From: a virus
Taxonomy: Duplodnaviria; Heunggongvirae; Uroviricota; Caudoviricetes
Virus record (IMG/VR): IMGVR_UViG_3300035034_002090
Location: 109,238-173,237 of that record
DNA: 64,000 nt
Reading direction: 5' to 3' (one strand)
Within the stretch, counting starts at the first letter, position 1. Each line of letters starts with the position of its first letter. Under the pieces are notes generated by a model, which worked only from the letters and a program-made list of their open reading frames with translations, made no database searches and was not told the origin of the DNA. This document shows positions 11,324-24,002 of this stretch, piece after piece. A program made the translations under genes and the position numbers.

Positions 11324-11632
11324 ATGACTCACTTTCCGGAAGGTTATGAAGACTCGCCGTATGAGGACTCAGGGTATGAAGGTTCACCATACGGGGATCC
11401 CGGGTATGAAGATTGGGGTCCGGAATGGCCGGAGAGAAAAGAGGAAGAGCCTGACCCAGAACAAGACGGGTGTGGCTGCTCGGGTTGCCTAGGGATGTCC
11501 GTAGGGTGTCTGTTGTATGCCCTGCTGTTCGTCTTCTTATGGGCCTTGATCTTTGGCGTAACCCTTGGTGATGATTCATACAGCATGGGTTGCTTAACTA
11601 TAGAGGACGGCGTCAGATTCGATCGTGAGTAA
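11324..11632 (+). CDS. small membrane protein with acidic YE(D/G)SPY repeats
   Basis: N-terminal tandem repeats YEDSPYEDSGYEGSPYGDPGYED; Cys-rich segment; C-terminal hydrophobic helix LLYALLFVFLWALIFGV. Confidence 0.4.
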   Translation: MTHFPEGYEDSPYEDSGYEGSPYGDPGYEDWGPEWPERKEEEPDPEQDGCGCSGCLGMSVGCLLYALLFVFLWALIFGVTLGDDSYSMGCLTIEDGVRFDRE

Positions 11633-11897
11633 TTGGAGTGTTTACATCGTAGGGTGTTCTGATGGGAGCCTGTACACAGGCGTCACGACGGATGTAGAGC
11701 GCCGGGTTCACGAGCACAACAATACGAGGAAGGGGGCAAAGTACACGCGTGCGCGCAGGCCCGTGGAGCTTGTCTGGTCGCAGTATTGCGTCAATAAATC
11801 CACAGCATACAAGCTAGAAGATGCGATAAAGAGGCTCGGAAGAAAAATGAAGGTGGCGATCGTTGAGGGTCGCCGACAACCACCATGCAAGGAGTAG
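11625..11897 (+). CDS. GIY-YIG family endonuclease
   Basis: VYIVGCSDGSLYTGVTTDVERRVHEHN matches GIY-(x10)-YIG-x-T...R...H.EH core. Confidence 0.75.
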   Translation: MSNWSVYIVGCSDGSLYTGVTTDVERRVHEHNNTRKGAKYTRARRPVELVWSQYCVNKSTAYKLEDAIKRLGRKMKVAIVEGRRQPPCKE

Positions 11898-11953: not shown

Positions 11954-13273
11954 ATGAAGACCAAGCCCGCTGAGGCGGTCCAGATCGATGTCCCTTTCGA
12001 GGTTGACACGCTTGAGGGTGAGGGTCTGTCTGGCAAGGCTGGCGATTACCTGATGCGTGGAGTCAAGGGTGAGCTTTACCCCTGTGATCGTGAGATCTTC
12101 GAAGAAACCTACGCTCCTGAATCGCGTCTGTCGGAGTTGGAATCTCGCTGTGAAGAGCTAGAGATTGCGGTAACCAATGACTACACCGATGGATACGAGG
12201 ACGGCTATGGTGTTGGTCTTCGTCACGGACACGCACAGGCGGATCGTGGGGAGGGGCTACCGGAGGTCTTCGATGAGCATGAGACTCACGAGCGCAAGCC
12301 TACTAGTTGGCACCGCGAGCGAGCTGATGAGCTGGCTGCTGATTGCGAGAAGTGGCGCATCCGAGCCCACAAGGCGAGGAAGGAGCGCGAAGAGATCGCC
12401 ATGGAGTTGGCCGCCCTCAAGGCTTACGGTGATGTCAGAGAGCTTAAGGCCGAGCGAGATAAGCTCAAGGAGTTCATCGACTACTTGCGTAACCGCAACA
12501 ATGGGATGGGTGCCACAGCTCGCAGGATGGAGAAGGTTCAGCGACTCGAAGGGCAGATTGAAAGAGCGAACTCCGCACTGCACGAGATTCGAGATCTTGC
12601 TCGCATCGATCAAGGATTTCCGGAGTGCGATATTGAGCAGATGGTCGACATCTACGAAGTATCCACTAGGGCACTGTTTGCGATGCAAGACGACGGCGTC
12701 ACCTCGGAGAGTAATACGTCGCAGGCTGAGCTGTTAGATAGGCTTGTTGACTACGTGCGTGGCTACGTGGGCGATCGCTATCTGGCAGGCGCTCTAGGCC
12801 AAGCCCTCGACATTGTGGATGAGACCGGAGAGAAGCCCGGTAAAGCCACCGAGGATGAGTTCCACGAGGGCGCGGTCGAGTGGATGCTGGGATTTGCGGA
12901 GTTCCTTGAGGGCGGAGTGAATGCAGAGGTGAAGGCGTGCCGAGAGGCACTGGATACTTTGCATGAGGTCGATGGCCAAGGGCTGTCGTCGGACGAATTG
13001 GCAAGTGCGTGCGCGGCGTTAGTGGCTGAGAGAAATGATGAGAGAGATCGTTCTGAGAAGTTAGAGGCCGAGCGCAATAAGCTCAGATCGCAACTTCACG
13101 CCGCTCTTCGGTCCATTGAGGATCTGGAGAAAGGCACCACTATAAATGAACTCGAACGAGATCGCGAAGAACTCCAAGATAGAATTGATCGAGCGATCAC
13201 AGCATCCGAAGAGGGCTCGGCTTCGGATGCCATCCAAGATATGCTGTTCATTCTCAGAGGTGACTCTCTGTAG
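11954..13273 (+). CDS. acidic coiled-coil protein
   Basis: 439 aa, highly E/R/L-rich heptad-like sequence throughout. Confidence 0.5.
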   Translation: MKTKPAEAVQIDVPFEVDTLEGEGLSGKAGDYLMRGVKGELYPCDREIFEETYAPESRLSELESRCEELEIAVTNDYTDGYEDGYGVGLRHGHAQADRGEGLPEVFDEHETHERKPTSWHRERADELAADCEKWRIRAHKARKEREEIAMELAALKAYGDVRELKAERDKLKEFIDYLRNRNNGMGATARRMEKVQRLEGQIERANSALHEIRDLARIDQGFPECDIEQMVDIYEVSTRALFAMQDDGVTSESNTSQAELLDRLVDYVRGYVGDRYLAGALGQALDIVDETGEKPGKATEDEFHEGAVEWMLGFAEFLEGGVNAEVKACREALDTLHEVDGQGLSSDELASACAALVAERNDERDRSEKLEAERNKLRSQLHAALRSIEDLEKGTTINELERDREELQDRIDRAITASEEGSASDAIQDMLFILRGDSL

Positions 13274-13276
13274 CTC

Positions 13277-14284
13277 CTAGGTGGTTACGACTGTCAGAAG
13301 ATCGGTGTTTTTATTGATGTGCCAAGAGCTAACGATGTTGGCACCCTCCAGCTCTTTCAGTGAGTTTCTGACGAGCTGGCGGAACTTCCACAGGTGCTTG
13401 GTCCTTGAGCCCGCAAGAAGTTTGATCTTCTCGACCTTTGTACGAAGGGGATCCTGCTTAGAGGCTCGGTGGGTCGACAGAAACGCGTGAAGCCATTTGG
13501 AGAAGTCCCCAGAGAGGTTTTGCCTGAGCTGGCTGGGCAGCTGCGTCCATCCGCCAACCTTGAACATATCGGCCAGTGTAGGATTGATGACGACAAGCAT
13601 CTCGTTGGACTGCTTGTTTCGGGCAACCTCTGTGATGAGACCTCCCGCGTACTCAAACTGCTTGTATTTCAGGTGAACCGCGCAGGCGGACATCCGTTCC
13701 AGCGACTGATACAGCCAATCATAGTCCCTTTTAGAGGTGTTTTTGCCGAGGTCGGTGAGGATCTTGTAGGCCACGAACTCGCCAGATTCATCGCCAAAAC
13801 TCGGCCTGATGTAGTCGTCGAGGACGTAGAGCCAGACATCTAGATCCGCCTGACCAAGCTCTTCGCCGGTGTACATCATCTCGACGCCTCCCCACGTGGC
13901 GATCTTCTCCCGCTTGAGGTGCTCGCGCTTGCTTCTTCCGACTACCCTGAATAGCGAGGATCTCAGAAGAAGATTAGGCGCAGCTCTATGCTCATCGAAC
14001 AGGTTTTTAGACAGGTCTAGTTCTATCTGCTGGGCTATTTTCTCTTCGTTGTTTTGCTTTGCTTCTGTAGGCTGTGACTCCTGCTTAGACCTTCGCTCTT
14101 TGTCTTTGAGATAGGCGCGCCCGATGGAGTTCTTGACTTCAGGATCCAGATCGACGCCGAGACCGTCTAGCTGTGATAGTGTGAGATCATCCTTGACGTT
14201 CAATTCCGTTCCTCCGTGAGTCGTTGACTGCTGACTTCGACTAACAACACCGAAGGTATACAGGAACAGCACTTCCGCAAGCAA
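13277..14284 (-). CDS. putative replication initiator (iteron-binding Rep, TrfA/RepA-like)
   Basis: 335-aa minus-strand ORF whose start abuts seven direct iterons; basic, winged-helix-like segments; plasmid-style architecture. Confidence 0.5.
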   Translation of the reverse strand: MLAEVLFLYTFGVVSRSQQSTTHGGTELNVKDDLTLSQLDGLGVDLDPEVKNSIGRAYLKDKERRSKQESQPTEAKQNNEEKIAQQIELDLSKNLFDEHRAAPNLLLRSSLFRVVGRSKREHLKREKIATWGGVEMMYTGEELGQADLDVWLYVLDDYIRPSFGDESGEFVAYKILTDLGKNTSKRDYDWLYQSLERMSACAVHLKYKQFEYAGGLITEVARNKQSNEMLVVINPTLADMFKVGGWTQLPSQLRQNLSGDFSKWLHAFLSTHRASKQDPLRTKVEKIKLLAGSRTKHLWKFRQLVRNSLKELEGANIVSSWHINKNTDLLTVVTT

Positions 14285-14296
14285 GCAGTATCTTGT

Positions 14297-14443
14297 CGTG
14301 AAAAGAGGTAGGATGGCACGTGAAAAGAGGTAGAGCGTATCGTGAACAGAGGTAGGATCGTGAACAGAGGTAGGCGGCCGTCGTGAAAAGGAGTAGGCTC
14401 GTGTCGTGAACAGAGGTAGGCGGCTATCGTGAAAAGGGGTAGG
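14297..14443. repeat. iteron array: seven 16-bp direct repeats CGTGAA(A/C)AG(A/G)GGTAGG, spacing 18-23 bp
   Basis: repeat starts at 14297, 14319, 14341, 14359, 14382, 14405, 14428; immediately upstream of the Rep start. Confidence 0.85.
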
Positions 14444-14460
14444 CTACTTGGTACTAAGCC

Positions 14461-14520
14461 TTTGTAGTCAAAGGGTTTTTCTGGCCCTATAATCCCTTCT
14501 TTAATCCTTTTCTAATCCTT
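14461..14520. promoter_or_regulatory. AT-rich tract with TAATCCTTTT x2 and a TATAAT-like box next to the iterons (candidate unwinding element/promoter)
   Basis: TATAAT at 14487-14492; two TAATCCTTTT copies ~11 bp apart. Confidence 0.4.
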
Positions 14521-14571
14521 TTGATAATCGAACTATATCGTGCGCGTGCGCGGGAAAACCGGAGATGGCCA

Positions 14572-14982
14572 ATGACGAAAGAGAACTCTAAGAAAGCACT
14601 CAAATCCATCGAGGGGAGCAAAAAGTCGCTTCGAGAGAGGGTGTTCGACTATATTGAGAGCCAGTCCGAGTTCGGGGCTACTGACTACGAAGTGGAACGT
14701 CACCTCGGCATCAAGCACCAGACAGCCTCAGTTCGACGTAGGGAGCTTGTTAAGGATCTTAGGGTGATTGACTCAGGCTACTCGCGAAAGACCGGCTCCG
14801 GACGCTGGGCGACTGTATGGCGTGTACTTCAGCCGGAAGACAAGGGTTCGCCTGAATACGTGGCTCAGATACGCGAACTCAAGCGCGCCGAAATTCTGTC
14901 GAAGGTCAAGAGGCTCGACGATCAGGCGCTGTTTCAATTAGGTGAAATTCTCGATCAGATGGACAAAAAGGAGGCGCTATGA
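14572..14982 (+). CDS. winged-helix DNA-binding protein
   Basis: GGAG RBS 7 nt before ATG 14572; basic helix-turn-wing-like segment GATDYEVERHLGIKHQTASVRRRELVKDL. Confidence 0.5.
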   Translation: MTKENSKKALKSIEGSKKSLRERVFDYIESQSEFGATDYEVERHLGIKHQTASVRRRELVKDLRVIDSGYSRKTGSGRWATVWRVLQPEDKGSPEYVAQIRELKRAEILSKVKRLDDQALFQLGEILDQMDKKEAL

Positions 14983-15278
14983 ATCGAAGAATCGAAGACG
15001 TACCGTTTTTGACAGCATGTAAGGCTCTCGTCTTAGACAAGGGCGTTGCCGGTGACTACAGGCACAGTGGCTGGGTAGGGTCTGATTGTCGGCTCTACGA
15101 AGACGACACTGTCCGCATTGTCCGCTCGCCAGATCCAAGCGATGAGACCATGGAGGTGATCAGGCTCGCCAACGACAATCCCGTGGCATATGTGACAAAG
15201 GAAGGAGATTGCATTCGATTGCACGGCGAATACAACGAGCTTACCGATCATGTCGAAGCGCTCGCAGACTCCGACTGA
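14979..15278 (+). CDS. hypothetical protein
   Basis: 99-aa ORF, ATGA overlap with upstream gene. Confidence 0.45.
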   Translation: MNRRIEDVPFLTACKALVLDKGVAGDYRHSGWVGSDCRLYEDDTVRIVRSPDPSDETMEVIRLANDNPVAYVTKEGDCIRLHGEYNELTDHVEALADSD

Positions 15279-15356: not shown

Positions 15357-16085
15357 ATGCAAGATCTTCAAGAGCGTGTGGGTGAATTCGGGGAGGACGT
15401 CGGCGAGGTTCTAGACGAGGGCGTTATCAGGTGGCTTAAGGGCGCGGCGATTGCTGCCGTTGTCTATTCTGTGGTGAAGGCCATTATCTGGCCCATCGTC
15501 AGCTTCGCCATGAGTAGAGGTGAGGCCAAGGTGTTCGTCAGGGAGGCCGGAGACCACATCAGGGCTCAGGTCGACAAGGCCATCAGCAAGAGGCCCAAGG
15601 GCGAGCACTATCCAGACGCAGAGAAGGTCTGGGTTGAGTACAGCTTTCCTCTCGATTGGGGGGCTGCTGTCGACGGGGTTATCGAAGCGATGAGTGGATC
15701 TGAAGAGCGTAACATGCCAAGCAGGCCCGCCATCAACTGGAACAAACTCCAGAAGTCGATGCACAAAGCATTCAAGATGATGATCGGAAAGCGTCAGGCT
15801 GGCCCTGAAGTCATCGAGGCCATCGAGGCCGCCCATGGCGACATGATGCGTGCTGAGACCGGAAAGATTTTTGACGAACACGTCCAGCAAAGCATCGCAC
15901 ATGATGTCCAGCAGTCCGATCTCGAACCAGAGGCTGTCGAAGGCGTCCTCTACAGGGACTTCGATGAGGAATGGGAGTCCAGTGAGCCGTGGTTGAGCGT
16001 GAAGCAAATCGATCGCACCAAGTGGGTGATGGTCTATAATGTCTCGCTGAGTGTATTTACTCTCGACGCGGGAATGAGAGGGTGA
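15357..16085 (+). CDS. hypothetical protein (N-terminal hydrophobic helix)
   Basis: 242-aa ORF; AAIAAVVYSVVKAIIWPIVSFAM transmembrane-like segment. Confidence 0.45.
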   Translation: MQDLQERVGEFGEDVGEVLDEGVIRWLKGAAIAAVVYSVVKAIIWPIVSFAMSRGEAKVFVREAGDHIRAQVDKAISKRPKGEHYPDAEKVWVEYSFPLDWGAAVDGVIEAMSGSEERNMPSRPAINWNKLQKSMHKAFKMMIGKRQAGPEVIEAIEAAHGDMMRAETGKIFDEHVQQSIAHDVQQSDLEPEAVEGVLYRDFDEEWESSEPWLSVKQIDRTKWVMVYNVSLSVFTLDAGMRG

Positions 16086-16771: not shown

Positions 16772-16845
16772 TTGTGCCCGTAGCTCAATGGTAGAGCGCG
16801 ATACTGTTAATATCGTGTGTGGAGGTTCAAGTCCTCCCGGGTACG
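16772..16845 (+). tRNA. tRNA-Asn(GTT) (manual fold)
   Basis: cloverleaf: acceptor GTGCCCG/CGGGTAC, anticodon arm CGATA-CTGTTAA-TATCG, T-arm GGAGGTTCAAGTCCTCC. Confidence 0.6.
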
Positions 16846-16848
16846 CTT

Positions 16849-16920
16849 GGACTCATAGCTCAATTGGAAGAGCGCTGGTTTGAAGAGCCAGACGTCCCCG
16901 TTCGATTCGGGGTGAGTCCA
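16849..16920 (+). tRNA. tRNA-Phe(GAA)
   Basis: acceptor GGACTCA/TGAGTCC, anticodon arm CTGGT-TTGAAGA-GCCAG, T-loop GTTCGATTC. Confidence 0.65.
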
Positions 16921-16926
16921 CTTCAT

Positions 16927-16996
16927 AGGGTGCGCGCTGGGTACGCGGTTGAGGCTCCAAACTTCGACGACAGCCGGGTTCGATTCCCGGGCTCCC
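16927..16996 (+). tRNA. tRNA-like gene, anticodon not resolved
   Basis: clear T-arm CCGGGTTCGATTCCCGG plus 3' acceptor; anticodon arm could not be folded confidently. Confidence 0.35.
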
Positions 16997-17045
16997 TGCT
17001 GAGGCATTAATTGCCTCTTCTTTGACAAGTGAATAGGAACTTTCT

Positions 17046-17127
17046 GCGTCGTACGAGACTTGGTGTCCATGGTGGCTGTAAACCACTTGCTCTATGAGCA
17101 TGGCAGGTTCGATCCCTGCACGGCGCA
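17046..17127 (+). tRNA. tRNA-Tyr(GTA), type II with long variable arm
   Basis: acceptor GCGTCGT/ACGGCGC, anticodon arm GGTGG-CTGTAAA-CCACT, variable hairpin TGCTCTATGAGCA, T-arm GGCAGGTTCGATCCCTGC. Confidence 0.6.
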
Positions 17128-17133
17128 CTTATC

Positions 17134-17206
17134 TTGCCCGTAGCTCAGCTGGTCAGAGCGTGTGCCTGTTAAGCACAATGTCGCCGGTTCGAATCCGGTC
17201 GGGTAA
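17134..17206 (+). tRNA. tRNA with GTT anticodon (Asn-like) by manual fold
   Basis: anticodon arm TGTGC-CTGTTAA-GCACA; T-arm GCCGGTTCGAATCCGGT. Confidence 0.5.
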
Positions 17207-17211
17207 GCTTT

Positions 17212-17284
17212 ACACCCATAGCACAATTGGCAGTGCGACGTGTTTTGAGCGCGTTGGTTCTAGGTTCGAATCCTAGTGGGTGTA
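17212..17284 (+). tRNA. tRNA-Gln(TTG)
   Basis: acceptor ACACCCA/TGGGTGT, anticodon arm ACGTG-TTTTGAG-CGCGT, T-arm CTAGGTTCGAATCCTAG. Confidence 0.6.
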
Positions 17285-17289
17285 CTTGT

Positions 17290-17361
17290 TCCGGGGTAGC
17301 TTAATGGTATAGCGGCGCGCTGTTACCGCGTTGATTGCAGGTTCGAGTCCTGCCCCCGGAG
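17290..17361 (+). tRNA. tRNA with GTT anticodon (third GTT in this array)
   Basis: acceptor TCCGGGG/CCCCGGA, anticodon arm GCGCG-CTGTTAC-CGCGT, T-arm GCAGGTTCGAGTCCTGC. Confidence 0.45.
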
Positions 17362-17366
17362 CTTGC

Positions 17367-17397
17367 CTCGCCCGTAGCTACAATGGCAGGGGTTTGA
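17367..17397 (+). other. tRNA 5'-half remnant (acceptor plus D-arm only)
   Basis: CGCCCGTAGCTACAATGGCAG resembles the 5' halves of the tRNAs at 16772 and 17134 but no 3' half follows. Confidence 0.4.
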
Positions 17398-17471
17398 GGG
17401 CGGGTCGCCAAGTCAGGTCAGGCCCCGGACTTTTTAATCCGGTATACGAGGGTTCGAATCCCTCCCCGCTC
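17398..17471 (+). tRNA. tRNA-Lys(TTT)-like with apparent 8-nt anticodon loop
   Basis: acceptor GGGCGGG/CCCGCTC, long D-loop, anticodon stem CCGGA/TCCGG enclosing CTTTTTAA (8 nt), T-arm GAGGGTTCGAATCCCTC. Confidence 0.5.
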
Positions 17472-17531
17472 ATTGATTGTTGAGTTGCCAGTTCGAGTCC
17501 GAATGGTCAATCTAACCACAAAGGAGCATCG

Positions 17532-18068
17532 ATGAGAGCCATGAGGCGCATGAAAGGTGAAGAGATGGGACTCGTTTTTAAGCGTGACAGAATCTCAGCA
17601 GGCCCGCCCCCCGGTTGGAGCTGGGAGAAGTGGGCTGAGCGTCTAGGTACGGACGTGGCCGGAGCTAGGATGGCTCATGAGGCTGCACGCCGAGAGGCCC
17701 TTGAGGAAACAGGGCTCGAAGTCTTCGACTTGAAAGCCATCTTCGAAATGGAGGATGACGGCCACGGCTACAGAACAGTCGCCTTCTCTTGCGAATATGA
17801 AGGTGAGATAGGATCCGACGAGGCTGGTGTCGTCGCATGGGTTGAGCCTGAGGTTTTGTTCGAAGGTTCCTTCGGAGAGTACAACAGGGCTCTCTATAAC
17901 CACTCGTTTCAGTGGAGTTGGGCGGCCAGTGATGAGGTCGTGACACGGTACTATCATCCCGCTGCGGGCAAGGATACTTGCGTGCTATGTAAGATGGAGG
18001 TATCGAAGAAAGGGATAAGCATGATCGGCGAGCCAAAAAAGGTGTCGTCGAACTATGAGCAAGAGTAG
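17532..18068 (+). CDS. hypothetical protein
   Basis: 178-aa ORF with AAGGAG RBS right after the tRNA array. Confidence 0.45.
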   Translation: MRAMRRMKGEEMGLVFKRDRISAGPPPGWSWEKWAERLGTDVAGARMAHEAARREALEETGLEVFDLKAIFEMEDDGHGYRTVAFSCEYEGEIGSDEAGVVAWVEPEVLFEGSFGEYNRALYNHSFQWSWAASDEVVTRYYHPAAGKDTCVLCKMEVSKKGISMIGEPKKVSSNYEQE

Positions 18069-18074
18069 TTTTCG

Positions 18075-18160
18075 GAGGGTTGGCAGAGTCTGGCTTATTG
18101 CACCGGTTTTGAAAACCGGAGGCGCGAAAGCGCCCGTGGGTTCGAATCCCTCACCCTCCT
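18075..18160 (+). tRNA. tRNA-Ser(TGA), type II
   Basis: acceptor GGAGGGT/ACCCTCC, anticodon arm CCGGT-TTTGAAA-ACCGG, long variable arm AGGCGCGAAAGCGCCCGT, T-loop GGTTCGAATCC. Confidence 0.65.
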
Positions 18161-18276
18161 TATAGCATCCCCCGGCGCAACCCGGCGCGCCCAAGGGGGT
18201 ATTTGACTGCCGGAGTCGATAGGTTATCGTCGAACTTTCAAGGAGGACGGCGCAACAAGGAGAGATGAGGTGAACC

Positions 18277-18822
18277 ATGTCGGATACACTTGTGCTGAAC
18301 GCTGACTATGCCCCGCACTCACTGGTTACTTGGCAAGAGGCCATTGGGCTTCTTGTAAACGGAAAGGCGCGGGTCGAGAGAGAGTATGAGGACTGGCAGG
18401 TATCCAGTCCGTCTATAACAATAAAGGTTCCCTCAGTTCTCGTGCTCATCAAGTACGTCGTCTTCAGGCAGCCGGTGAAGTTCAACAGGGTGAATATCTA
18501 CGCCCGAGATGATCGCCAGTGCCTGTATTGTGGCAAGAAGGCTGGCAAGGGGCAGAAGCTCCGTGTGACTGATCTCACATTCGATCACGTCATTCCTCGA
18601 AGCAGGGGTGGCAAGACGAACTGGATGAACATCGTCACGGCTTGCGGAACCTGTAACCTAAAAAAGGGTAACAGGATGCCCAGAGAGGCAAATATGCCCC
18701 TTCTTAGGAAGCCGTACAAGCCGAAGAAGTTGAATCATATCGAGTTCACGCTCTCCGGTAGATCAATCCCTGAAGCATGGAGGGATTACCTGTACTGGAC
18801 ACAGGAGCTAGAACAGGACTAA
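18277..18822 (+). CDS. HNH endonuclease
   Basis: CLYCGKK...LTFDHVIPRSRGGKTNWMNIVTACGTCNLKKG: HNH core with zinc-binding Cys pairs. Confidence 0.8.
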   Translation: MSDTLVLNADYAPHSLVTWQEAIGLLVNGKARVEREYEDWQVSSPSITIKVPSVLVLIKYVVFRQPVKFNRVNIYARDDRQCLYCGKKAGKGQKLRVTDLTFDHVIPRSRGGKTNWMNIVTACGTCNLKKGNRMPREANMPLLRKPYKPKKLNHIEFTLSGRSIPEAWRDYLYWTQELEQD

Positions 18823-18885
18823 GATGGGGCCGGTCGGCCTGTGCTGACCGGCTTTATCTATCCTTGTTAGAAGTAGAGGTATCCT

Positions 18886-19095
18886 GTGACGACCAGAGAA
18901 GAGCTTATTGAGAAGACAACAGGGTTGCGCGAGGCAATTCAAGAGGTCATGCTGGACCTCAAGAAGCTTGGCGAGTCCGGTGAGATGTCTGAGCAGATGA
19001 AAGACATTCTTCTTAAACAGGCTATGGAAGCGGGTCTCGGTATGCTTTGTGTCGAAGGTGTCCTAAAAGAGGTTGATAATGCGGACAAGGAGTGA
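18886..19095 (+). CDS. hypothetical small protein
   Basis: 69-aa ORF. Confidence 0.3.
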   Translation: MTTREELIEKTTGLREAIQEVMLDLKKLGESGEMSEQMKDILLKQAMEAGLGMLCVEGVLKEVDNADKE

Positions 19096-19321
19096 CAGGG
19101 ATTCGACATTTGAGCCAGTAGAGGCACCTGAAGGGTCTATCGTATGGAATGACACCTACGTCAACGAAAACGGCGTAGAGCTTAAGAAGGGTATCTTCCT
19201 TGGTAAGTATGTCATATACCAAGTGGCCCCGGGGCTCTTCGATAGCAGTGAGCATATAAAGGAACCGCTTGATACGGTGTCGGGTGCGGATTTCTATCGG
19301 GATATTGATTGGGAGTTTTAG
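19073..19321 (+). CDS. hypothetical small protein
   Basis: 82-aa ORF overlapping previous stop. Confidence 0.3.
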   Translation: MIMRTRSDRDSTFEPVEAPEGSIVWNDTYVNENGVELKKGIFLGKYVIYQVAPGLFDSSEHIKEPLDTVSGADFYRDIDWEF

Positions 19322-19328
19322 GTTCAAA

Positions 19329-19401
19329 GGGGACGTAGCTCAATTGGGAGAGCACTTCGCTGGCAGCGAAGAGGTTGAGGGTTCGAACCCCTCCGGCTCC
19401 A
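19329..19401 (+). tRNA. tRNA-Ala(GGC)
   Basis: G3:U70 Ala identity pair; anticodon arm CTTCG-CTGGCAG-CGAAG; T-arm GAGGGTTCGAACCCCTC. Confidence 0.65.
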
Positions 19402-19576
19402 TGTGACGAATTGGTGTGAAGAGAGGCCCCGGGAAGCGTCAAGCGTGGAGGGTCTTGTAGACGCGCACAAATGGTCGGGCCACTGACCTAAAAGGAAGGG
19501 CTGAGGTAAGGGCGATGTTGCTACCAGCAACCTGAACCAAGAAATGAGACAGGTAGCCGCTCCTTTGGGAGCGTAA

Positions 19577-19649
19577 GGGGCCGTAGCTCAATTGGGAGAG
19601 CGCCGTCTTTGCAAGGCGATGGTTGAGGGTTCGAGTCCCTCCGGCTCCA
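19577..19649 (+). tRNA. tRNA-Ala(TGC)
   Basis: G3:U70; anticodon loop TTTGCAA; 72/73 identical to the copy at 62987-63059. Confidence 0.65.
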
Positions 19650-19651
19650 CT

Positions 19652-19740
19652 GGAAGGGTGGCTGAGCGGTCTAAGGCACTCGCTTGGAAAGCGGGCGATC
19701 ATGAGACATGGGTCCGAGGGTTCGAATCCCTCCCCTTCCG
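19652..19740 (+). tRNA. tRNA-Ser(GGA), type II
   Basis: acceptor GGAAGGG/CCCTTCC, anticodon arm CTCGC-TTGGAAA-GCGGG, long variable arm, T-arm GAGGGTTCGAATCCCTC. Confidence 0.6.
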
Positions 19741-19861
19741 TTTTAGGTTCTTTCAATTGGCGTGTGACCTCTGCCTTGGGCTAAGTTGTTTTATCCAAGA
19801 CTGAGCAAGATACTGGCTTTGGCGAATATTAAATCGCGCCAGTCAAGACAGAGGCACACGC

Positions 19862-20656
19862 ATGGGTACTTTGATCGAACATATCGACACCCTTCTTGAA
19901 GCAGCTCCAATGCTCAAATTTAAGGGGCTTCCGAAGGTAACCACAAGGCCAGATCAGGAGGTTGTTTAGCCATCCACTGATCGGCAGATTGAAATTCAGA
20001 AAAAGAGAATTAAGAACCGTCTAAAGAGGCTGGGCTGGGGCTCGATGGAGATCGATGGCATCGTTGGTGCCGCAGATCAAGCCATGACTTCTTTTGATAA
20101 GATGTCCGGCCTAACTGTTGGCGGAGGAAATCAGGGGCCTGTCTCTATAATAGGGCTTCGGTCGAACAGCATCGGCGTTAAGAACCACGAGGCCATACAC
20201 GTTCTCTTCAAGCAGATCAGTCAAAAGTATGGGGCTCACGCAGAAAGTTCGGTTGTAAGTGAGCTGGTCAAGGAAGTCAGTTCCGAGGTGAAAGACAAGC
20301 TCAAAGCCATATTTATTAAGTATGGATCCGGCGTATATAACTCGTCTGATGAGGATGAGATTCTAGCTTGGATGTACACCTTCATGACGTCTCGTCACGC
20401 AAGAGAGAAGGTAGGCATGAGTCGGGAGATGATGAGTGCCATCAAGCGTGATTGGAAGAGAGTTGTTCGGCGGGCCGCAAAGTTCACACCCGAGAAGCTA
20501 CAGGGAGACTCTCTCAGTAGGACCAAGCGCGTATTTATGAAGTACGACTCCGATCATCTCAAGATGATTCTGGACGAAGATCTGTTCCCCGAGGATCTAT
20601 TCCCGAGACGCAACGATATTCTAAGGGACATCCTGAGGGAGAGGGGCGACCTTTGA
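19862..20656 (+). pseudogene. leader-motif family member interrupted by in-frame TAG at 19967-19969 (264 codons total)
   Basis: MGTLIEHIDTLLEA leader at the N-terminus; 35 codons, TAG, then the 20045-20656 ORF continues in the same frame. Confidence 0.45.
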
Positions 20657-20774
20657 GGGCGCTCTAAAATACCGGCATTGACGTTTTTGTTTTTGCTTGA
20701 CGTCGAAGATAGTAGGTCTCTAAGGTTCGCTGCTCAGTTAGCAGCACCGTAACGCAACCTTAGCGAGAACGTTT

Positions 20775-21836
20775 ATGACTGCTACCGATGTTGAAGTTGA
20801 AGTGCATGATCGATACCGGGTATTTGACGAGTTCTTCTCCGGCCGTAACGAAGATCAAAAGGTTTGCATCGTTCTGCAACACACCCCCGATCCAGATGCC
20901 ATTGGCAGCGCGCTTGCGCTCGAATGGCTCCTTGAGGTCAGGCACGGCCTTCAGTCGGACATCTGCTATTCCGGGCAGGTAAGCCATCCTCAAAACCAGA
21001 CTGAGATCAATGTGCTGGACATTCGTCTAAAGCATATCGATGATTTCAAGACTGAGTTTGATGAAGGTGGTTATTCGACGTTTGTTACAGTAGACAGCGT
21101 CCCTCAAAACACGGGATTCGACTGTATCGATGAGTGGCACGCTGTGTTCGATCATCACCAGTTCGAGATGGATCTACCCGTGACGGACATCAGGGCCACA
21201 GGCTCGTGCTCGTCTATCCTCTGGGACTACCTCAATCACTTCGAGATGGACTTCACGACGGAACGCGGGTCTATGGTCGCCACAGCTCTGTTGTTTGGCG
21301 TGGTCAATGACACGCATAACCTGCTGACTGAAAATGTTTGCGTGCTGGACCTCGAAGCCCACTCGCATCTGATTCAGTACATCGATCGGAAGAAGTTCCA
21401 CAACATCATCAATCACCCCCTGCCGCCGTATCTGTTTGATCTAAGGGCGTTGGCGGCGGCGAATATGGTGTGCGAGGCTTCGATCCTGATCTCGTATCTG
21501 GGCATTCTTCCTAGTAAGCGTAGAGACGCGCTTCCGATCATCGCAGATGAGTTCTTGCGCATGGAAGGTGTCGAGACAGTCGTGGTCTTCTGCATGATCG
21601 AGGGAGCTATCGAGGCTTCGGTGAGAAGCCGGAACTCATCGGTTAATGTGCACCAGTTTTGCCAAAAGGTTTTCGGCCCTAAGAAGGCTGGAGGCAAGCA
21701 AGGTGCTGGCGGAGCTAAGGTTCCGGTCGGGTTTCTCTATGCGTCTGACGATGACGTAGCCGACCAAGAAAAGCTCAGTGAGTTCATCAAGGGTACGGTG
21801 ACGAAGCGGATTATCCGTCATCTGTCCGGAGCTTGA
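20775..21836 (+). CDS. DHH-family phosphoesterase (NrnA/RecJ-like, DHH-DHHA1)
   Basis: motifs LQHTPDPDAIGSALAL (DxD), VFDHHQ (DHH), C-terminal GPKKAGGKQGAGGA (GGGH-like DHHA1). Confidence 0.65.
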   Translation: MTATDVEVEVHDRYRVFDEFFSGRNEDQKVCIVLQHTPDPDAIGSALALEWLLEVRHGLQSDICYSGQVSHPQNQTEINVLDIRLKHIDDFKTEFDEGGYSTFVTVDSVPQNTGFDCIDEWHAVFDHHQFEMDLPVTDIRATGSCSSILWDYLNHFEMDFTTERGSMVATALLFGVVNDTHNLLTENVCVLDLEAHSHLIQYIDRKKFHNIINHPLPPYLFDLRALAAANMVCEASILISYLGILPSKRRDALPIIADEFLRMEGVETVVVFCMIEGAIEASVRSRNSSVNVHQFCQKVFGPKKAGGKQGAGGAKVPVGFLYASDDDVADQEKLSEFIKGTVTKRIIRHLSGA

Positions 21837-21951
21837 TGTGGAGTTACTTATTTACAGTCTGGCGGCCCTGAGTATAATGAGCATCATACTTGAGGGCCGC
21901 CACTGTTATCACTCTCTGGGACTGAGAGAGTAATCTGTTGTACAAAAGGAA

Positions 21952-22137
21952 GTGAGGACTATGACGAACAAAGGTGATGAAATTATCGACCTCATCGACG
22001 GTCTAGATAATGTCGAGCCAGAAGATCTCGAAGATGTTGAGGATCTCAGAGAGGCTCTACAGGAAAGGATTGATGTCTTGTCGGAGATCTTTGAGATCGC
22101 CGAGGACATCTCGATGGCGGTAGACGACTTAACTTAG
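21952..22137 (+). CDS. small highly acidic protein
   Basis: 61 aa, D/E-rich. Confidence 0.3.
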   Translation: MRTMTNKGDEIIDLIDGLDNVEPEDLEDVEDLREALQERIDVLSEIFEIAEDISMAVDDLT

Positions 22138-22267
22138 CAGGATAGGGAGCCGATATTTCCGAGTACAGGAAAATAGGAAAGCATCACGGGTATGTGATGG
22201 TAGAGCCCCCGAAGGATTACCGGGGGCTCGATGGTCTGGTGGAAGATACTGCTACGAACATCAAGCA

Positions 22268-22591
22268 GTGTGGTGGATTAATACTGGCGAGATACCCGGC
22301 AGCGGGCAGATAGTGCATCACATTAATGAGGATAAGACTGATAATCGATTTGAGAACTTAGAGGTTTTAGACAGATCAGAGCACGCCAAACACCATGGTG
22401 ATCAGAAAAAGAAAATGATGGTCATTCTTAGGTGTCCAGCATGTAGTGAGATCTTTGAAAGGGCCAGAAACAAAACGCATTTGGTAAAAGGCGGTATGGC
22501 TAGCTATTGCTCAAGATCATGTGCAGCATCTGGCGGAAAGAAGGGGCGTGTGGTCTATGAGGATAATGTGGTAGAGGTTTACCTTAAGTAG
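22268..22591 (+). CDS. HNH endonuclease (GTG start; paralog of 30841-31302)
   Basis: HHINEDKTDNRFENLEVLDRSEHAKHH plus C-terminal zinc ribbon CPACSE...CSRSC; upstream in-frame homology without a start codon suggests N-terminal truncation. Confidence 0.65.
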   Translation: MWWINTGEIPGSGQIVHHINEDKTDNRFENLEVLDRSEHAKHHGDQKKKMMVILRCPACSEIFERARNKTHLVKGGMASYCSRSCAASGGKKGRVVYEDNVVEVYLK

Positions 22592-22670
22592 GTTTAGGGC
22601 GGTGGTGTTAATTGGATTAACATCAGAGATTCCAAATCTCTGGCTGAGGGTTCGAGTCCCTCCCGCCTTG
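22586..22670 (+). tRNA. tRNA-Trp(CCA)
   Basis: anticodon arm AGAGA-TTCCAAA-TCTCT; T-arm GAGGGTTCGAGTCCCTC. Confidence 0.55.
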
Positions 22671-22673
22671 CTT

Positions 22674-22761
22674 GGAAGGGCAGACATGGCTGGCGTGTCA
22701 GCCTGTTTCGAAAACAGGTAGCCGTTTATTCGGTCTGAGGGTTCGATCCCCTCTCCTTCCG
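22674..22761 (+). tRNA. tRNA-Ser(CGA), type II
   Basis: acceptor GGAAGGG/TCCTTCC, anticodon arm CCTGT-TTCGAAA-ACAGG, long variable arm. Confidence 0.6.
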
Positions 22762-22763
22762 TT

Positions 22764-23372
22764 TTGAACACAATGATAACTGGAACATACGCCACCGACC
22801 ACCATAGGAAGGCTTTAATGGACGATAGAACCGTGAAAGAATCGCCGGAAGACCTTATGAGAGCCCGTGAGGCGCTTATGTCTCTGGATGACATGGAGGG
22901 ACAGATCATTAAGAATGCTCGTGACTTCGTGACAAGCAACGGTGAGCTTAACTACAGTTCCGGCGTCCTATCAGCTCTTTATGACAGGGGCATGTACGAG
23001 TCAGGAATTGCTGAATTCGTCGCAGATACGGCCGTCAATATTTTTAGGGGTCTTCGCGAGCACATCAATATCCCCGGTGTCCTGAAAGGTCCAGTGGGCA
23101 TGGCAACAGATGGCGCTGCTATTAGAGCTATGACGAGGCGAACAGCCGTCGTTCTAGATCATGACGACAGCTTGGACGAGATCGTTACTACGGGTTCTTG
23201 TGAGGGCCTCGTAGAGGCGGTTTGTGAGGATTTGCGTGAACGGATCGGTGCTTACGGTGCCGTTTACCCGTATCAGCTTTTTATGCCCATGGGACCCTTC
23301 AAGGATCCGAGTATCGAAGGTGACCGACCAAAGTTCGGCTTGGCAATCAGGTATGGAGCCTATACGGTATGA
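22764..23372 (+). CDS. hypothetical protein
   Basis: 202-aa ORF directly after tRNA-Ser. Confidence 0.4.
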   Translation: MNTMITGTYATDHHRKALMDDRTVKESPEDLMRAREALMSLDDMEGQIIKNARDFVTSNGELNYSSGVLSALYDRGMYESGIAEFVADTAVNIFRGLREHINIPGVLKGPVGMATDGAAIRAMTRRTAVVLDHDDSLDEIVTTGSCEGLVEAVCEDLRERIGAYGAVYPYQLFMPMGPFKDPSIEGDRPKFGLAIRYGAYTV

Positions 23373-23396
23373 GAAGCCTGCTTCAATGAGAGCACT

Positions 23397-23732
23397 ATGG
23401 ATAGCCTGACCAAAAGGAATTCAATCGGGATTACCGGAAGCATTGTCATTTTGCTTCTGTTCACTATGCTCACAAGCGGGTGTAAGAAACCTTCGGGACC
23501 GAGCGGGGTTCACGAGGAAGGTGATCTGGAAGCCTTTTGCTCGACGACTTTAGAGCGAAAGAGGCTGGAGAGATTCATCCTCGATTGCACAAAAAATGCC
23601 GGACAGAGCACTACTGAGGATGGCGATGACCTCGTCGCGCAGTGTGAGGAAACCGGTATCAGGGTGGTATGTCCTGTTGTATGCACTCTAGGCACCGAGT
23701 ACTTGAACAATAAAAGGGCTTGCCCTCCTTGA
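23397..23732 (+). CDS. putative lipoprotein, Cys-rich
   Basis: signal peptide with lipobox LTSGC; six further Cys in the mature part. Confidence 0.4.
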   Translation: MDSLTKRNSIGITGSIVILLLFTMLTSGCKKPSGPSGVHEEGDLEAFCSTTLERKRLERFILDCTKNAGQSTTEDGDDLVAQCEETGIRVVCPVVCTLGTEYLNNKRACPP

Positions 23733-23806
23733 GTAGCTAGTCTACCTTACATCCGTTCACAAAGATCCCATCGCCCGGGTAAGATGGGTAAGGCGCTAGC
23801 GCGCCG

Positions 23807-23883: not shown

Positions 23884-23929
23884 ATTAGTTGTATTAGTCA
23901 CTAGGTTGGTTATAGTGAAGGATGATAGT

Positions 23930-24001: not shown

Positions 24002-24002
24002 T

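What the first reader, a model, noticed from the sequence alone, without database searches (positions are those of the whole stretch)
13277..14520. Plasmid-type iteron origin inside a phage genome: Rep gene, seven 22-bp-phased iterons, AT-rich repeats and a WH gene
Seven copies of CGTGAA(A/C)AG(A/G)GGTAGG at 14297-14443 recur every ~22 bp, about two helical turns. They sit directly upstream of the minus-strand 335-aa basic protein (13277-14284).

The TAATCCTTTT repeats and a TATAAT box (14461-14520) separate them from a + strand winged-helix gene (14572-14982). This is the canonical theta-replicon layout of RK2/pPS10-type plasmids: the Rep autoregulates via iterons next to a DNA-unwinding element.

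The combination with tail fibers and tRNA arrays suggests a phage-plasmid lifestyle, or an iteron-driven phage origin.
Basis: partly seen in the sequence, partly recalled or inferred. Interest (0 to 1): 0.7.

Follow-up and report, generated by a model that had tools for sequence, protein, structure and literature searches.

The report
Plasmid TrfA replication origin in phage
A large tailed phage known only from metagenomes carries a complete copy of the replication starter used by RK2-type plasmids (the TrfA protein plus its repeat-containing origin DNA), so it probably starts copying its genome the way those plasmids do; the module is ordinary, but finding it in a phage is rare.

Summary

- **Iterons:** seven copies of CGTGAAMAGRGGTAGG lie at 14297-14443, spaced 22, 22, 18, 23, 23 and 23 bp. 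They occur nowhere else in the window.
- **Initiator:** the minus-strand ORF passes Pfam's TrfA threshold over the whole profile. It matches 283 plasmid records (those listed are annotated trfA) at 28-38% identity and models as the tandem winged-helix fold of RepE and pi.
- **Whole origin is homologous:** true TrfA plasmids have 22-bp iterons with a related unit (…GGTAGG). They are followed, in the same order and polarity, by TAATC-type AT-rich repeats and a GC box. The window's GC box is identical to that of an Azotobacter plasmid.
- **Differences from RK2:** no DnaA boxes, no adjacent parA operon, and a diverged clamp-binding motif.
- **Neighbouring gene:** it has a real winged-helix fold but is not a conserved part of the replicon.
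- **Host genome:** a contractile-tailed phage (175.9-kb contig) with baseplate genes, 30 tRNAs and a tmRNA. No GenBank phage has a detectable homologue, and only one other phage-like contig with trfA plus iterons was found.

Whether the module drives phage replication or plasmid-prophage maintenance is unresolved. It is a new member of a known kind, of moderate interest.

The parts
13277..14203 (-). trfA-like replication initiator gene. The 308-aa form starts at TTG 14203; the open frame runs on to 14284, and a gene caller used GTG 14272 (331 aa).
   Evidence: - Pfam TrfA PF07042: E 3.5e-13, 49.7 bits (cut-off 22), profile positions 13-275 of 282.
- tblastn matches 283 plasmid records at 28-38% identity, E down to 1e-34; 18 of the 20 listed are annotated trfA.
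- 1,757 relatives among 1.84 billion representatives; the nearest non-self is 39% identical.
- 25% identity to R751 TrfA, E 2e-14.
- AlphaFold pLDDT 87.6. Foldseek top hits are RepE54, pi and RctB domains 2-3, with TM about 0.7 on the target.
- GGAGGA lies upstream of TTG 14203 with a 6-nt spacer.
- GC3 is 0.66, like its neighbours.
14204..14296 (-). Leader between the likely trfA start codon and the first iteron.
   Evidence: Read directly from the sequence. No sigma-70-like promoter was found here.
14297..14443 (+). Array of seven direct iterons (16-17 bp core CGTGAAMAGRGGTAGG), starting at 14297, 14319, 14341, 14359, 14382, 14405 and 14428.
   Evidence: - Located, and unique in the window.
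- The unit matches iterons beside trfA at 11-12 of 17 positions: pNWAT02 (CACGTAGTTCGAGGTAGG), a Pantoea plasmid (CACGGGATAGCGGGTAGG) and L006. L020 has a related unit (CGGGATAGCGCGTAGGG).
- The same 22-23 bp period is seen in R751.
14459..14484 (+). Short hairpin (CCTTTGTAGTCAAAGG) followed by a T-run, in the spacer between the iterons and the AT-rich repeats.
   Evidence: Terminator-like site on the + strand. The Azotobacter plasmid origin has a longer hairpin at the equivalent place. Its function is not known.
14465..14493 (+). Promoter-like site TAGTCA-17-TATAAT facing the winged-helix gene; it overlaps the start of the unwinding element.
   Evidence: Matches 10 of 12 consensus positions and is the only such site in 13100-15100. 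It is a consensus match only.
14490..14536 (+). DNA unwinding element: four TAATC(C)-type repeats starting at 14490, 14502, 14513 and 14525.
   Evidence: - TRF period 11. GC minimum is 25% in 40 nt, against 52% for the window.
- CTAATC..TTAATC repeats sit at the same position and polarity in L013, L014, L008 and L009.
- R751 has TAACC(C)TT repeats at the equivalent place.
- The RK2 13-mer consensus is TAAACnTTnTTTT, and TrfA binds one strand of it (PMC4081077).
14540..14553 (+). GC box CGTGCGCGTGCGCG closing the origin.
   Evidence: An identical 14-mer follows the unwinding element of the Azotobacter chroococcum 8-kb TrfA plasmid. GC-rich blocks sit at the same place in L014, L008, L009 and R751.
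14572..14982 (+). Adjacent winged-helix DNA-binding protein gene (136 aa). It is a neighbour and not shown to belong to the replicon.
   Evidence: - AlphaFold core residues 20-90 have block-mean pLDDT 86-93 and form H-H-H plus a beta-hairpin, followed by a long C-terminal helix.
- Foldseek gives only weak hits, to MarR, ArsR and PadR regulators.
- phrog_1123, function unknown.
- Only one homologue in 5.8 billion proteins.
- No counterpart next to other TrfA origins.

Best explanation
This is a complete, intact TrfA-family theta replicon (initiator gene plus cognate oriV) resident in the genome of a large contractile-tailed phage. It most likely serves as an origin of replication for that genome.

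**Proposed mechanism, inferred from the RK2 paradigm**
1. TrfA monomers bind the seven iterons through their two winged-helix domains. The 22-23 bp spacing places most of them on one face of the helix.
2. The resulting nucleoprotein complex melts the adjacent AT-rich element.
3. TrfA holds one strand of the four TAATC repeats.
4. The host DnaB helicase and DNA polymerase III are then recruited, and theta replication starts next to the GC box.
5. Because there are no DnaA boxes, helicase loading would be independent of DnaA.
6. trfA is transcribed divergently from the rest of the region, and any promoter must lie in or beyond the iterons. TrfA occupancy would therefore probably limit its own synthesis.

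**What is shown and what is inferred**
- Shown: family membership, the fold, homology of the whole origin to plasmid origins, and the phage context.
- Inferred: binding, melting, helicase and clamp recruitment, autoregulation, and which part of the life cycle uses the origin.

**My leaning.** I lean slightly towards use as the phage's own replication-initiation module, as with lambda O and ori-lambda, rather than low-copy plasmid maintenance. There are two reasons.
- The module sits inside the nucleotide-metabolism and replication gene block, both here and in the only other phage-like example (L009).
- It lacks the parA operon that precedes trfA in the two closest relatives whose context could be read.
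For: **Initiator**
- Above Pfam's TrfA threshold over the full profile.
- 283 plasmid records match.
- Tandem winged-helix fold matching the solved RepE, pi and Rep-iteron-DUE complexes.

**Origin**
- Seven unique iterons.
- The iteron period and core motif are shared with arrays at or a few hundred bp from trfA in 4 of 4 plasmids examined. The two closest relatives have them 0.2-3.4 kb from the gene.
- The order iterons, spacer, TAATC repeats, GC box is shared with L013, L014, L008, L009 and R751. This includes an identical 14-nt GC box.
- Literature on RK2 oriV and on TrfA binding to single-stranded DUE: PMC4980987 and PMC4081077.

**Not an assembly artefact or a recent insert**
- The region is identical in two assemblies, and a third covers the left junction.
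- GC3 matches the neighbouring genes.
- The nearest homologue is only 39% identical.

**Phage context**
- gp25, base_V and gp53 baseplate genes and a tube-like protein.
- A protein with a tail-fibre / head-decoration domain.
- 30 tRNAs and a tmRNA.
Against: - No experiment: binding, melting and replication are all inferred.
- There is no DnaA box at or near the origin, unlike RK2, R751 and pNWAT02.
- GC skew shows no change at 14.4 kb. However, skew here follows the uniform direction of transcription.
- No recognisable trfA promoter.
- The clamp-binding motif is diverged.
- One 18-bp step breaks the helical phasing of the iterons.
- About 100 kb of the contig was not readable. A phage-encoded polymerase and another origin may exist, so the role of this origin in the life cycle is open. 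Capsid and terminase genes were not seen either.
Confidence: 0.75

Rival explanations
1. Phage-plasmid replicon. The module is used only in lysogeny, to maintain the phage as a low-copy extrachromosomal plasmid prophage. This would parallel RepA and oriR of P1. Lytic replication would use other, phage-encoded functions.
For: - TrfA/iteron replicons are plasmid maintenance replicons wherever they have been studied (PMC4980987).
- All close relatives lie on plasmids.
- No integrase was seen in about 75 kb.
- A small XRE-type HTH gene is present at 34362-34577.
- Phage-plasmids are a recognised and diverse class (PMC11652158).
Against: - No ParA/ParB or toxin-antitoxin genes in the window or its flanks. 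The two closest TrfA relatives whose context was read have parA directly upstream.
- There is no second, copy-control iteron cluster.
- The genome has the look of a large virulent phage: 30 tRNAs, a tmRNA, ribonucleotide reductase, PhoH and many homing endonucleases.
- No bacterial genome among 185,579 species carries a close copy.
- About 100 kb remains unseen, so par genes cannot be excluded.
Confidence: 0.3
2. Inactive passenger. A plasmid replicon captured by recombination is carried along without any role, or is decaying.
For: - The module is rare in phages. There is no tblastn match in 50,697 GenBank phage records even at E <= 1.
- trfA is the only gene on its strand within +-10 kb.
- DnaA boxes and the par operon have been lost.
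Against: - The ORF is intact, with a good ribosome-binding site.
- All seven iterons are near-identical.
- The unwinding element and GC box are conserved down to an identical 14-mer.
- Composition matches the host genome.
- The nearest relative is only 39% identical, so this is not a recent transfer.
- The genes are tightly packed, with convergent stop codons 3 nt apart.
Confidence: 0.08
3. Regulatory re-use. The TrfA homologue acts as a transcription factor, and the repeats are its operator array controlling the divergent promoters. Alternatively, it interferes with resident TrfA plasmids. Either way it would not initiate replication.
For: - The array lies between divergent genes, next to a promoter-like site.
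- By my own knowledge, Rep proteins of this fold also act as repressors.
Against: A pure operator would not need the conserved AT-rich repeats and GC box in the family-specific order and polarity.
Confidence: 0.05
4. Artefact or another repeat class: an assembly chimera of plasmid and phage DNA, a degraded CRISPR array, or a structured RNA.
For: One assembly (Logan, 104 kb) ends inside the iterons, by arithmetic from its length and its match to the window.
Against: - Two independent assemblies span both junctions with identical sequence.
- Units of 16-17 bp separated by 2-7 bp do not fit CRISPR geometry.
- There are no other copies in the window.
- No Rfam match in 13900-14700.
Confidence: 0.02

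Closest known systems
RK2/R751 (IncP-1) TrfA-oriV replicon
   Same: - Same protein family: Pfam TrfA, and 25% identity to R751 TrfA.
- Direct iterons of about 17 bp at 22-23 bp spacing.
- These are followed by a spacer of about 45-55 nt, four AT-rich repeats of 11-13 nt and a GC-rich block, in the same polarity. The repeats are TAATCC(C)TT here, TAACC(C)TT in R751, and TAAACnTTnTTTT by consensus in RK2.
   Different: - Seven iterons in one cluster, with one 18-bp step, against five (plus distant extra copies in RK2).
- The iteron sequence differs: CGTGAAAAGAGGTAGG against TGACAnTTGAGGGGC.
- No DnaA boxes.
- oriV abuts the 5' end of trfA, whereas the R751 oriV array lies about 5 kb from trfA in the record.
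- No ssb, kor or par context.
- The clamp motif QLSLF is replaced by SKNLF in a shortened linker.
- The replicon is a phage genome, not a conjugative plasmid.
Small and conjugative non-IncP TrfA plasmids: Nitrosococcus watsonii pNWAT02, Azotobacter chroococcum HR1 unnamed4, a Pantoea agglomerans 46-kb plasmid, and metagenomic parA-trfA plasmids L018 and L020
   Same: - These hold the closest proteins (28-39% identity).
- Iteron units of the same type (…GGTAGG).
- The CTAATC..TTAATC unwinding element.
- A GC box, identical to the window's in the Azotobacter plasmid.
   Different: - They are plasmids with toxin-antitoxin, par or conjugation genes.
- pNWAT02 has a DnaA box after the GC box.
- In several of them oriV lies downstream of trfA rather than upstream.
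IMG/VR contig IMGVR_UViG_3300010965_000482 (locus L009)
   Same: - It is phage-like DNA: an intein-split class II ribonucleotide reductase, ligase, ThyX and Rha proteins.
- It carries a TrfA homologue (29% identity).
- Five 22-bp iterons lie 35 nt upstream of that gene.
- A CTAATC..TTAATC element plus a GC box lie distal to the iterons. This is the same arrangement as in the window.
   Different: - It is not a close relative of this phage. Only TrfA and a CsrA-like gene are shared.
- The iteron sequence is different (CGTGAGTGCTATTGAACC).
- The contig is only 20 kb, so its nature is not fully established.
Plasmid-prophage replicon of phage P1 (RepA, oriR, incA, parAB); comparison from my own knowledge plus reviews PMC5043065 and PMC11652158
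   Same: A tailed phage genome carrying a plasmid-type initiator of the same winged-helix fold class. Direct iterons lie next to an AT-rich region.
   Different: - A different Rep family and 19-bp iterons.
- P1 has DnaA boxes, a second control iteron cluster (incA) and an adjacent parAB operon. None of these was found here.
Lambda O protein and ori-lambda (my own knowledge; PMC5043065)
   Same: A phage-encoded initiator binds repeated sites next to an AT-rich region and borrows the host DnaB and polymerase III.
   Different: - The lambda repeats lie inside the O gene and are inverted repeats (PMC5043065).
- The O protein is unrelated to TrfA.
- Lambda brings its own helicase loader, P. None was identified here.

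Membership tests
TrfA family of plasmid replication initiators (Pfam PF07042) | Sequence match above the curated family threshold over most of the profile. | tested here: met
   49.7 bits against a cut-off of 22, profile positions 13-275 of 282. The precomputed Pfam call on the source contig is also TrfA.
TrfA family of plasmid replication initiators (Pfam PF07042) | Significant similarity to proteins annotated and used as TrfA in plasmids, including the IncP-1 archetype. | tested here: met
   283 plasmid records match at E down to 1e-34, and 18 of the 20 listed are annotated trfA. R751 TrfA matches at 25% identity over 271 columns, E 2e-14.
TrfA family of plasmid replication initiators (Pfam PF07042) | Tandem winged-helix (WH1-WH2) iteron-binding fold. 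| tested here: met
   The model has pLDDT 87.6 and pTM 0.77. Foldseek matches RepE54, pi, RctB domains 2-3 and the Rep-iteron-DUE complexes, with E from 3e-8 to 5e-6 and TM on the target about 0.65-0.71 for RepE54 chains.
TrfA family of plasmid replication initiators (Pfam PF07042) | Beta-clamp binding motif (QLSLF in RK2; L137 and F138 are essential; PMC4980987). | tested here: inconclusive
   R751 QLSLF aligns with the window's SKNLF in a low-confidence linker. Most clade members have a QLPLW-type motif there, often as (I/V)QLPLWP. The window has QQIELDLSKNLF, with part of the motif deleted.
RK2-type oriV (iteron origin served by TrfA) | A cluster of at least five direct iterons of about 17 bp at a 22-23 bp period. 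| tested here: met
   Seven copies with spacing 22, 22, 18, 23, 23, 23. R751 and eight other TrfA-linked arrays have a period of 22-23 bp.
RK2-type oriV (iteron origin served by TrfA) | Iteron sequence related to those of other family members. | tested here: met
   11-12 of 17 positions are shared with the pNWAT02, Pantoea and L006 units, including CG.G at one end and GGTAGG at the other; L020 has a related unit. Only the GAGG core is shared with IncP-1.
RK2-type oriV (iteron origin served by TrfA) | AT-rich unwinding element with about four repeats of 11-13 nt on one fixed side of the iterons, followed by a GC-rich block. | tested here: met
   Four TAATC repeats at 14490-14536 and the GC box at 14540-14553. 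The order and polarity are the same in L013, L014, L008, L009 and R751. The RK2 13-mer consensus comes from PMC4081077.
RK2-type oriV (iteron origin served by TrfA) | DnaA boxes flanking the iterons. | tested here: not met
   No site with 1 mismatch or fewer lies within 1.4 kb. One 2-mismatch site occurs in 14100-14700, against a chance rate of 1.6 per 600 bp.
RK2-type oriV (iteron origin served by TrfA) | Supports TrfA-dependent autonomous replication. | not testable with these tools
   This needs cloning of the 13.2-14.6 kb fragment and transformation assays.
Phage-plasmids | Phage structural and morphogenesis genes on the same replicon. | tested here: met
   Baseplate genes gp25/GPW, base_V and gp53 lie just upstream of the window on the same contig. 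There is also a tube-like protein and a tail-fibre / head-decoration domain protein. Capsid and terminase genes were not seen.
Phage-plasmids | Plasmid-type replication initiator. | tested here: met
   TrfA plus oriV, as set out above.
Phage-plasmids | Partition system or other plasmid-stability functions. | tested here: inconclusive
   None was found in about 75 kb, that is the window plus its flanks. About 100 kb of the contig could not be read.
Phage-plasmids | Extrachromosomal maintenance in a lysogen. | not testable with these tools
   The host is unknown. No close copy was found in 185,579 species genomes.
   The units are 16-17 bp with gaps of 2-7 bp. There are no other copies in the window, and there is no Rfam match.

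The most novel reading that the evidence does not exclude
A large, tRNA-rich, probably virulent myovirus uses a plasmid-derived TrfA/oriV module as its main origin. It would fire without DnaA and draw directly on the host DnaB helicase and polymerase III, rather than relying on a phage-encoded initiator. This would be a third route to phage replication initiation, beside lambda-type and T4/T7-type systems, and it would have been acquired independently in at least two phage lineages (this phage and L009).
Probability: 0.3. Interest if true: 0.6.

Novelty: new member of a known kind. Interest (0 to 1): 0.45.

Why it matters
- **Predicted origin.** This gives a concrete, experimentally tractable origin prediction for an uncultured 176-kb phage. 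Replication origins of large environmental phages are almost never known.
- **Gene flow.** It documents movement of a whole replicon from plasmids to phages, cis elements as well as the protein. None of 50,697 GenBank phage records shows this family.
- **If a phage-plasmid.** The element would be unusually large and tRNA-rich for that class.
- **If a lytic origin.** A plasmid copy-control initiator would have been re-purposed for a lytic cycle.
- **Practical use.** The conserved iteron / TAATC-repeat / GC-box signature found here could be used to annotate TrfA origins, which plasmid papers often fail to locate. For example, PMC6963756 reported no iterons for a TrfA plasmid.

Tried and rejected
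- **Relatives of the initiator.** GenBank phages gave no tblastn match at E <= 1e-5 or E <= 1. Megablast of 12 kb gave nothing. Single-protein searches of IMG/VR, GTDB genomes and JGI metagenomes found no close relative.
- **Relatives of the phage.** Anchor searches with two neighbouring genes found no related phage in IMG/VR, so synteny could not be tested. The 501-aa structural-module protein has no GenBank phage match.
- **Population variation.** The origin is 100% identical between assemblies, so variation tells us nothing.
- **GC skew.** There is no inflection at the origin, and skew follows transcription.
- **DnaA boxes.** None near the origin. A cluster of three near-consensus boxes at 32066-32127 lies inside a minus-strand ORF of ordinary composition, and I dismissed it as chance.
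- **trfA promoter.** No convincing site was found.
- **Clamp motif.** My first guess, the invariant RSSLF, was wrong. It aligns with R751 RSAIF, not with QLSLF.
- **Other databases.** NCBIfam has no model that matches. A PDB sequence search found nothing; only the fold search worked.
- **Other IMG/VR hits.**
  - L006 looks like a plasmid or genomic island.
  - L007 lies next to an integrase.
  - The 22-bp arrays in L010 flank a separate Rep_3 gene (13629-14633), one of them overlapping its upstream end, so I attribute them to it rather than to the TrfA homologue.
  - None of the three counts as a phage example.
Full report

Yes. The + strand carries seven copies of CGTGAAMAGRGGTAGG starting at 14297, 14319, 14341, 14359, 14382, 14405 and 14428.
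- Start-to-start spacing is 22, 22, 18, 23, 23, 23 bp.
- Allowing two mismatches, these are the only matches on either strand of the 64-kb window. Shuffles give 0.09 expected.
- A weight-matrix scan finds nothing else above 12 bits, while the seven score 24-31 bits.
- Tandem Repeats Finder reports the array, and also a separate 11-bp-period repeat, TAATCCTTTTC, at 14490-14522.
- GC drops to 33% in a 60-nt window at 14470-14529, against about 52% overall.

The ORF at 13277-14284 (-) and the ORF at 14572-14982 (+) are both present.

**2. The protein is a TrfA-family initiator.**

- *Pfam.* TrfA (PF07042) scores 49.7 bits, E 3.5e-13, against a gathering score of 22. The match covers profile positions 13-275 of 282.
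- *Plasmid collection.* tblastn finds 283 records, and 18 of the 20 listed are annotated trfA. Identity is 28-38% and E reaches 1e-34. Hosts are mostly Pseudomonadota, such as Burkholderia, Piscirickettsia, Pseudomonas, Arsenophonus and Xylella.
- *Exhaustive HMMER search.* Against 1.84 billion representatives there are 1,757 relatives. Apart from the protein itself, the best is only 39% identical.
- *Archetype.* R751 TrfA aligns at 25% identity over 271 columns, E 2e-14.
- *Structure.* No solved structure matches by sequence. A confident AlphaFold model (pLDDT 87.6, pTM 0.77) matches the iteron initiators RepE54 of F and pi of R6K, RctB domains 2-3, and the Rep-iteron-ssDUE complexes. TM on the target is about 0.7.
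- *Start codon.* Only three start codons exist in the first 120 codons. TTG 14203 is the only one preceded by a strong ribosome-binding site (GGAGGA, 6-nt spacer). I therefore take the gene as 13277-14203, 308 aa, pI 8.9.
- *Composition.* GC and GC3 match the neighbouring genes. Together with the 39% nearest neighbour, this argues for long residence rather than recent capture.

**3. The whole origin is homologous to plasmid TrfA origins, not only the repeats.**

I fetched four true TrfA plasmids, R751, and the two closest metagenomic relatives. Every one has an iteron array of 22-23 bp period.
- In the four plasmids the array touches trfA or lies within about 450 bp of it. In the two metagenomic relatives it lies 0.2-3.4 kb away, and in R751 about 5 kb.
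- Read in one orientation, several units align in register with the window's TCGTGAAAAGAGGTAGG:

| Source | Iteron unit |
|---|---|
| pNWAT02 | CACGTAGTTCGAGGTAGG |
| Pantoea plasmid | CACGGGATAGCGGGTAGG |
| L006 | CACGGGATAGCAGGTAGG |
| L020 | CGGGATAGCGCGTAGGG |

- For the first three units, 11-12 of 17 positions are shared with the window. These include CG.G at one end and GGTAGG at the other. The L020 unit is of the same type.
- On the GGTAGG side of the array, the window, the Azotobacter plasmid (L013), pNWAT02 (L014) and L008 all have a spacer, then CTAATC..TTAATC-type AT-rich repeats, then a GC-rich box.
- The window's CGTGCGCGTGCGCG (14540-14553) is identical to the Azotobacter box.
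- R751 shows the same order: five iterons, a spacer of about 50 nt, TAACC(C)TT repeats, then GC-rich DNA.
- RK2's four 13-mers have the consensus TAAACnTTnTTTT. TrfA binds one strand of them, and all four are needed (PMC4081077).
- The window has four repeats, starting at 14490, 14502, 14513 and 14525.

This conservation of cis elements in a fixed polarity is the strongest argument that the region is a working oriV. It argues against an operator array or a chance repeat.

**4. Differences from the archetype.**

- *DnaA boxes.* There is none. No site with one mismatch lies within 1.4 kb. The single two-mismatch site in 14100-14700 is at the chance rate. R751 has a pair next to its iterons, and pNWAT02 has one after its GC box.
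- *Partition genes.* The closest relatives sit in parA-small gene-trfA operons on conjugative plasmids. Here trfA stands alone.
  - It is the only gene on its strand within +-10 kb.
  - No ParA, ParB, toxin-antitoxin or integrase domain appears in the window or the fetched flanks.
- *Clamp-binding motif.* The motif that RK2 needs (L137/F138; PMC4980987) is QLSLF in R751 and commonly QLPLW in the nearer clade. In the window protein it aligns with SKNLF, in a shortened, low-confidence linker. Clamp recruitment is therefore plausible but unproven.
- *Iteron phasing.* The 18-bp step splits the iterons into groups of three and four that are about half a turn out of phase.
- *Promoter.* I found no convincing minus-strand promoter. 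The best weak candidates would both transcribe through the iterons. This fits autoregulation but does not show it.

**5. The neighbouring gene.**

ORF 14572-14982 models as a winged helix with a long C-terminal helix. It resembles MarR, ArsR and PadR regulators only weakly.
- It hits phrog_1123, of unknown function.
- It has one homologue among 5.8 billion proteins.
- It has no counterpart beside any other TrfA origin examined.

It is preceded by a promoter-like TAGTCA-17-TATAAT that overlaps the start of the unwinding element. I treat it as the first gene of the next phage operon and not as part of the replicon.

**6. What genome is this?**

- The window is a strain variant of a 175,870-bp ENA metagenome contig, 99.9-99.98% identical. 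The same phage appears in a 104-kb Logan contig and in JGI contigs.
- Just upstream of the window lie baseplate genes: gp25/GPW, Phage_base_V and gp53.
- The window itself holds the following:
  - a tube-like protein, class II ribonucleotide reductase, a DnaQ-like exonuclease, NUDIX and DHH proteins;
  - a DinG-like helicase, PhoH, Band_7 and a beta-helix spike-like protein;
  - a protein with tail-fibre / head-decoration domains;
  - GroES, CsrA, ChaB and several HNH and GIY-YIG endonucleases;
  - 30 tRNA genes and a tmRNA.
- This is a large contractile-tailed phage. Capsid and terminase genes were not seen, because about 100 kb of the contig could not be read.
- It has no DNA or protein-level relatives in GenBank phages or IMG/VR with the queries tried.
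- The origin region is identical in two assemblies that span both junctions. The Logan contig covers the left junction and, by arithmetic from its length, ends inside the iterons, as expected for a repeat. A chimera is therefore unlikely.

**7. How rare is this in phages?**

- tblastn against 50,697 GenBank phage records finds no match even at E <= 1. PHROGs does hold a family of unknown function that matches (phrog_26900).
- A profile-guided scan of 2.9 million IMG/VR contigs confirmed five TrfA loci. Only L009 is convincingly phage-like.
  - It has an intein- and homing-endonuclease-split ribonucleotide reductase, ligase, ThyX and Rha proteins.
  - It has five 22-bp iterons 35 nt upstream of its trfA.
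  - Read on the other strand, it has the same CTAATC..TTAATC element and GC box distal to the iterons. This is the arrangement seen in the window.
- L009 shares only TrfA and a CsrA-like gene with this phage. That points to independent acquisition or very deep divergence.
- The other four loci look like plasmids, islands or multi-replicon elements.

**8. Mechanism and lifestyle.**

By analogy with RK2 (PMC4980987, PMC5043065, PMC4081077), I propose the following sequence, all of it inferred:
1. TrfA monomers occupy the iterons.
2. The complex opens the TAATC repeats.
3. TrfA captures one strand.
4. Host DnaB and polymerase III are loaded. This would happen without DnaA here, a mode that RK2's long TrfA form is known to use in Pseudomonas (PMC4980987; the mechanistic detail is my own knowledge).

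Whether this origin serves productive phage replication or plasmid-prophage maintenance cannot be decided.
- *For a phage replication role:* the module is embedded in the nucleotide-metabolism block in both phage-like examples. There is no par operon and no control iteron cluster. The genome also has the look of a virulent phage.
- *For a phage-plasmid role:* every characterised TrfA replicon is a maintenance replicon. No integrase was seen, and most of the genome is unread.

I give the functional-origin reading 0.75 overall. Within it, I lean slightly towards a phage replication role.

**9. Verdict.**

The module is a new, divergent member of a well-known replicon family in an unusual carrier. 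It is not a new kind of system. Interest is moderate at 0.45. It would rise if the full genome shows no phage polymerase, or if coverage profiles show the origin firing during infection.

Noticed in passing
window 16774-31959, 62987-63059 and 37316-37718: There are 30 tRNA genes in several arrays and a full-length tmRNA (Rfam 136.5 bits). The predicted tag peptide is unusually long, ending ...ERAAA.
   Followed up: partly
window 17398-17472: ARAGORN reports a tRNA with a four-base anticodon (tttt) and leaves it unassigned. Rfam still scores it as a tRNA (51.3 bits). It could be a frameshift-suppressor-like tRNA or a miscall.
   Followed up: no
window 22661-23973: This 1.3-kb segment is absent from the otherwise 99.9%-identical ENA contig. 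It holds a tRNA-Ser and a 202-aa ORF with no Pfam match. The junctions fall in the shared T-arm sequence GGTTCGAGTCCC of two tRNA genes. That suggests recombination between tRNA genes or an assembly collapse.
   Followed up: partly
window 15664: The ENA contig has one extra G here. In the window the ORF 15357-16085 is whole (242 aa). The ENA gene calls split it into 123 and 115 aa.
   Followed up: no
window 32066-32127: Three near-consensus DnaA boxes lie within 62 bp. They sit inside a minus-strand ORF of ordinary composition, so this is probably chance.
   Followed up: yes
window 57611-57796; L009 8818-9066; L010 7457-7744: The phage has a CsrA-like gene (Pfam CsrA). CsrA-like genes lie directly beside the TrfA homologues in L009 and L010, but 43 kb away from trfA in the window.
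   Followed up: no
window 13271-13279: The stop codons of the 439-aa + strand gene and of trfA are only 3 nt apart, and there is no terminator between them. Transcription of the two genes must therefore converge and collide.
   Followed up: no
window ~14326 (end of Logan contig SRR6129546_1819): By arithmetic from the contig's length and its match to the window, this independent 104-kb assembly of the same phage ends inside the iteron array. That is a typical assembly break at a repeat.
   Followed up: partly
window 11625-11897 and 18277-18822; also HNH_3 genes near 23.6 kb and 30.8 kb: Several free-standing GIY-YIG and HNH homing-endonuclease-type genes are scattered among the tRNA arrays.
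   Followed up: no
window 41674-41976, 46105-46845 and 35227-36231: The phage encodes a GroES-like Cpn10, a ChaB-domain protein and an SPFH/Band_7 protein.
   Followed up: no
L010 13593-15416: This 89.8-kb IMG/VR contig carries a Rep_3 initiator flanked by three 22-bp iteron arrays. It also carries a distant TrfA homologue, so it appears to have two replicons.
   Followed up: partly
L004 2-2050 (contig end, beyond window position 64000): A 683-aa ORF with weak MmeI/Eco57I-type methyltransferase hits runs to within one base of the contig end. The contig may therefore be cut within a gene, or be circular.
   Followed up: no
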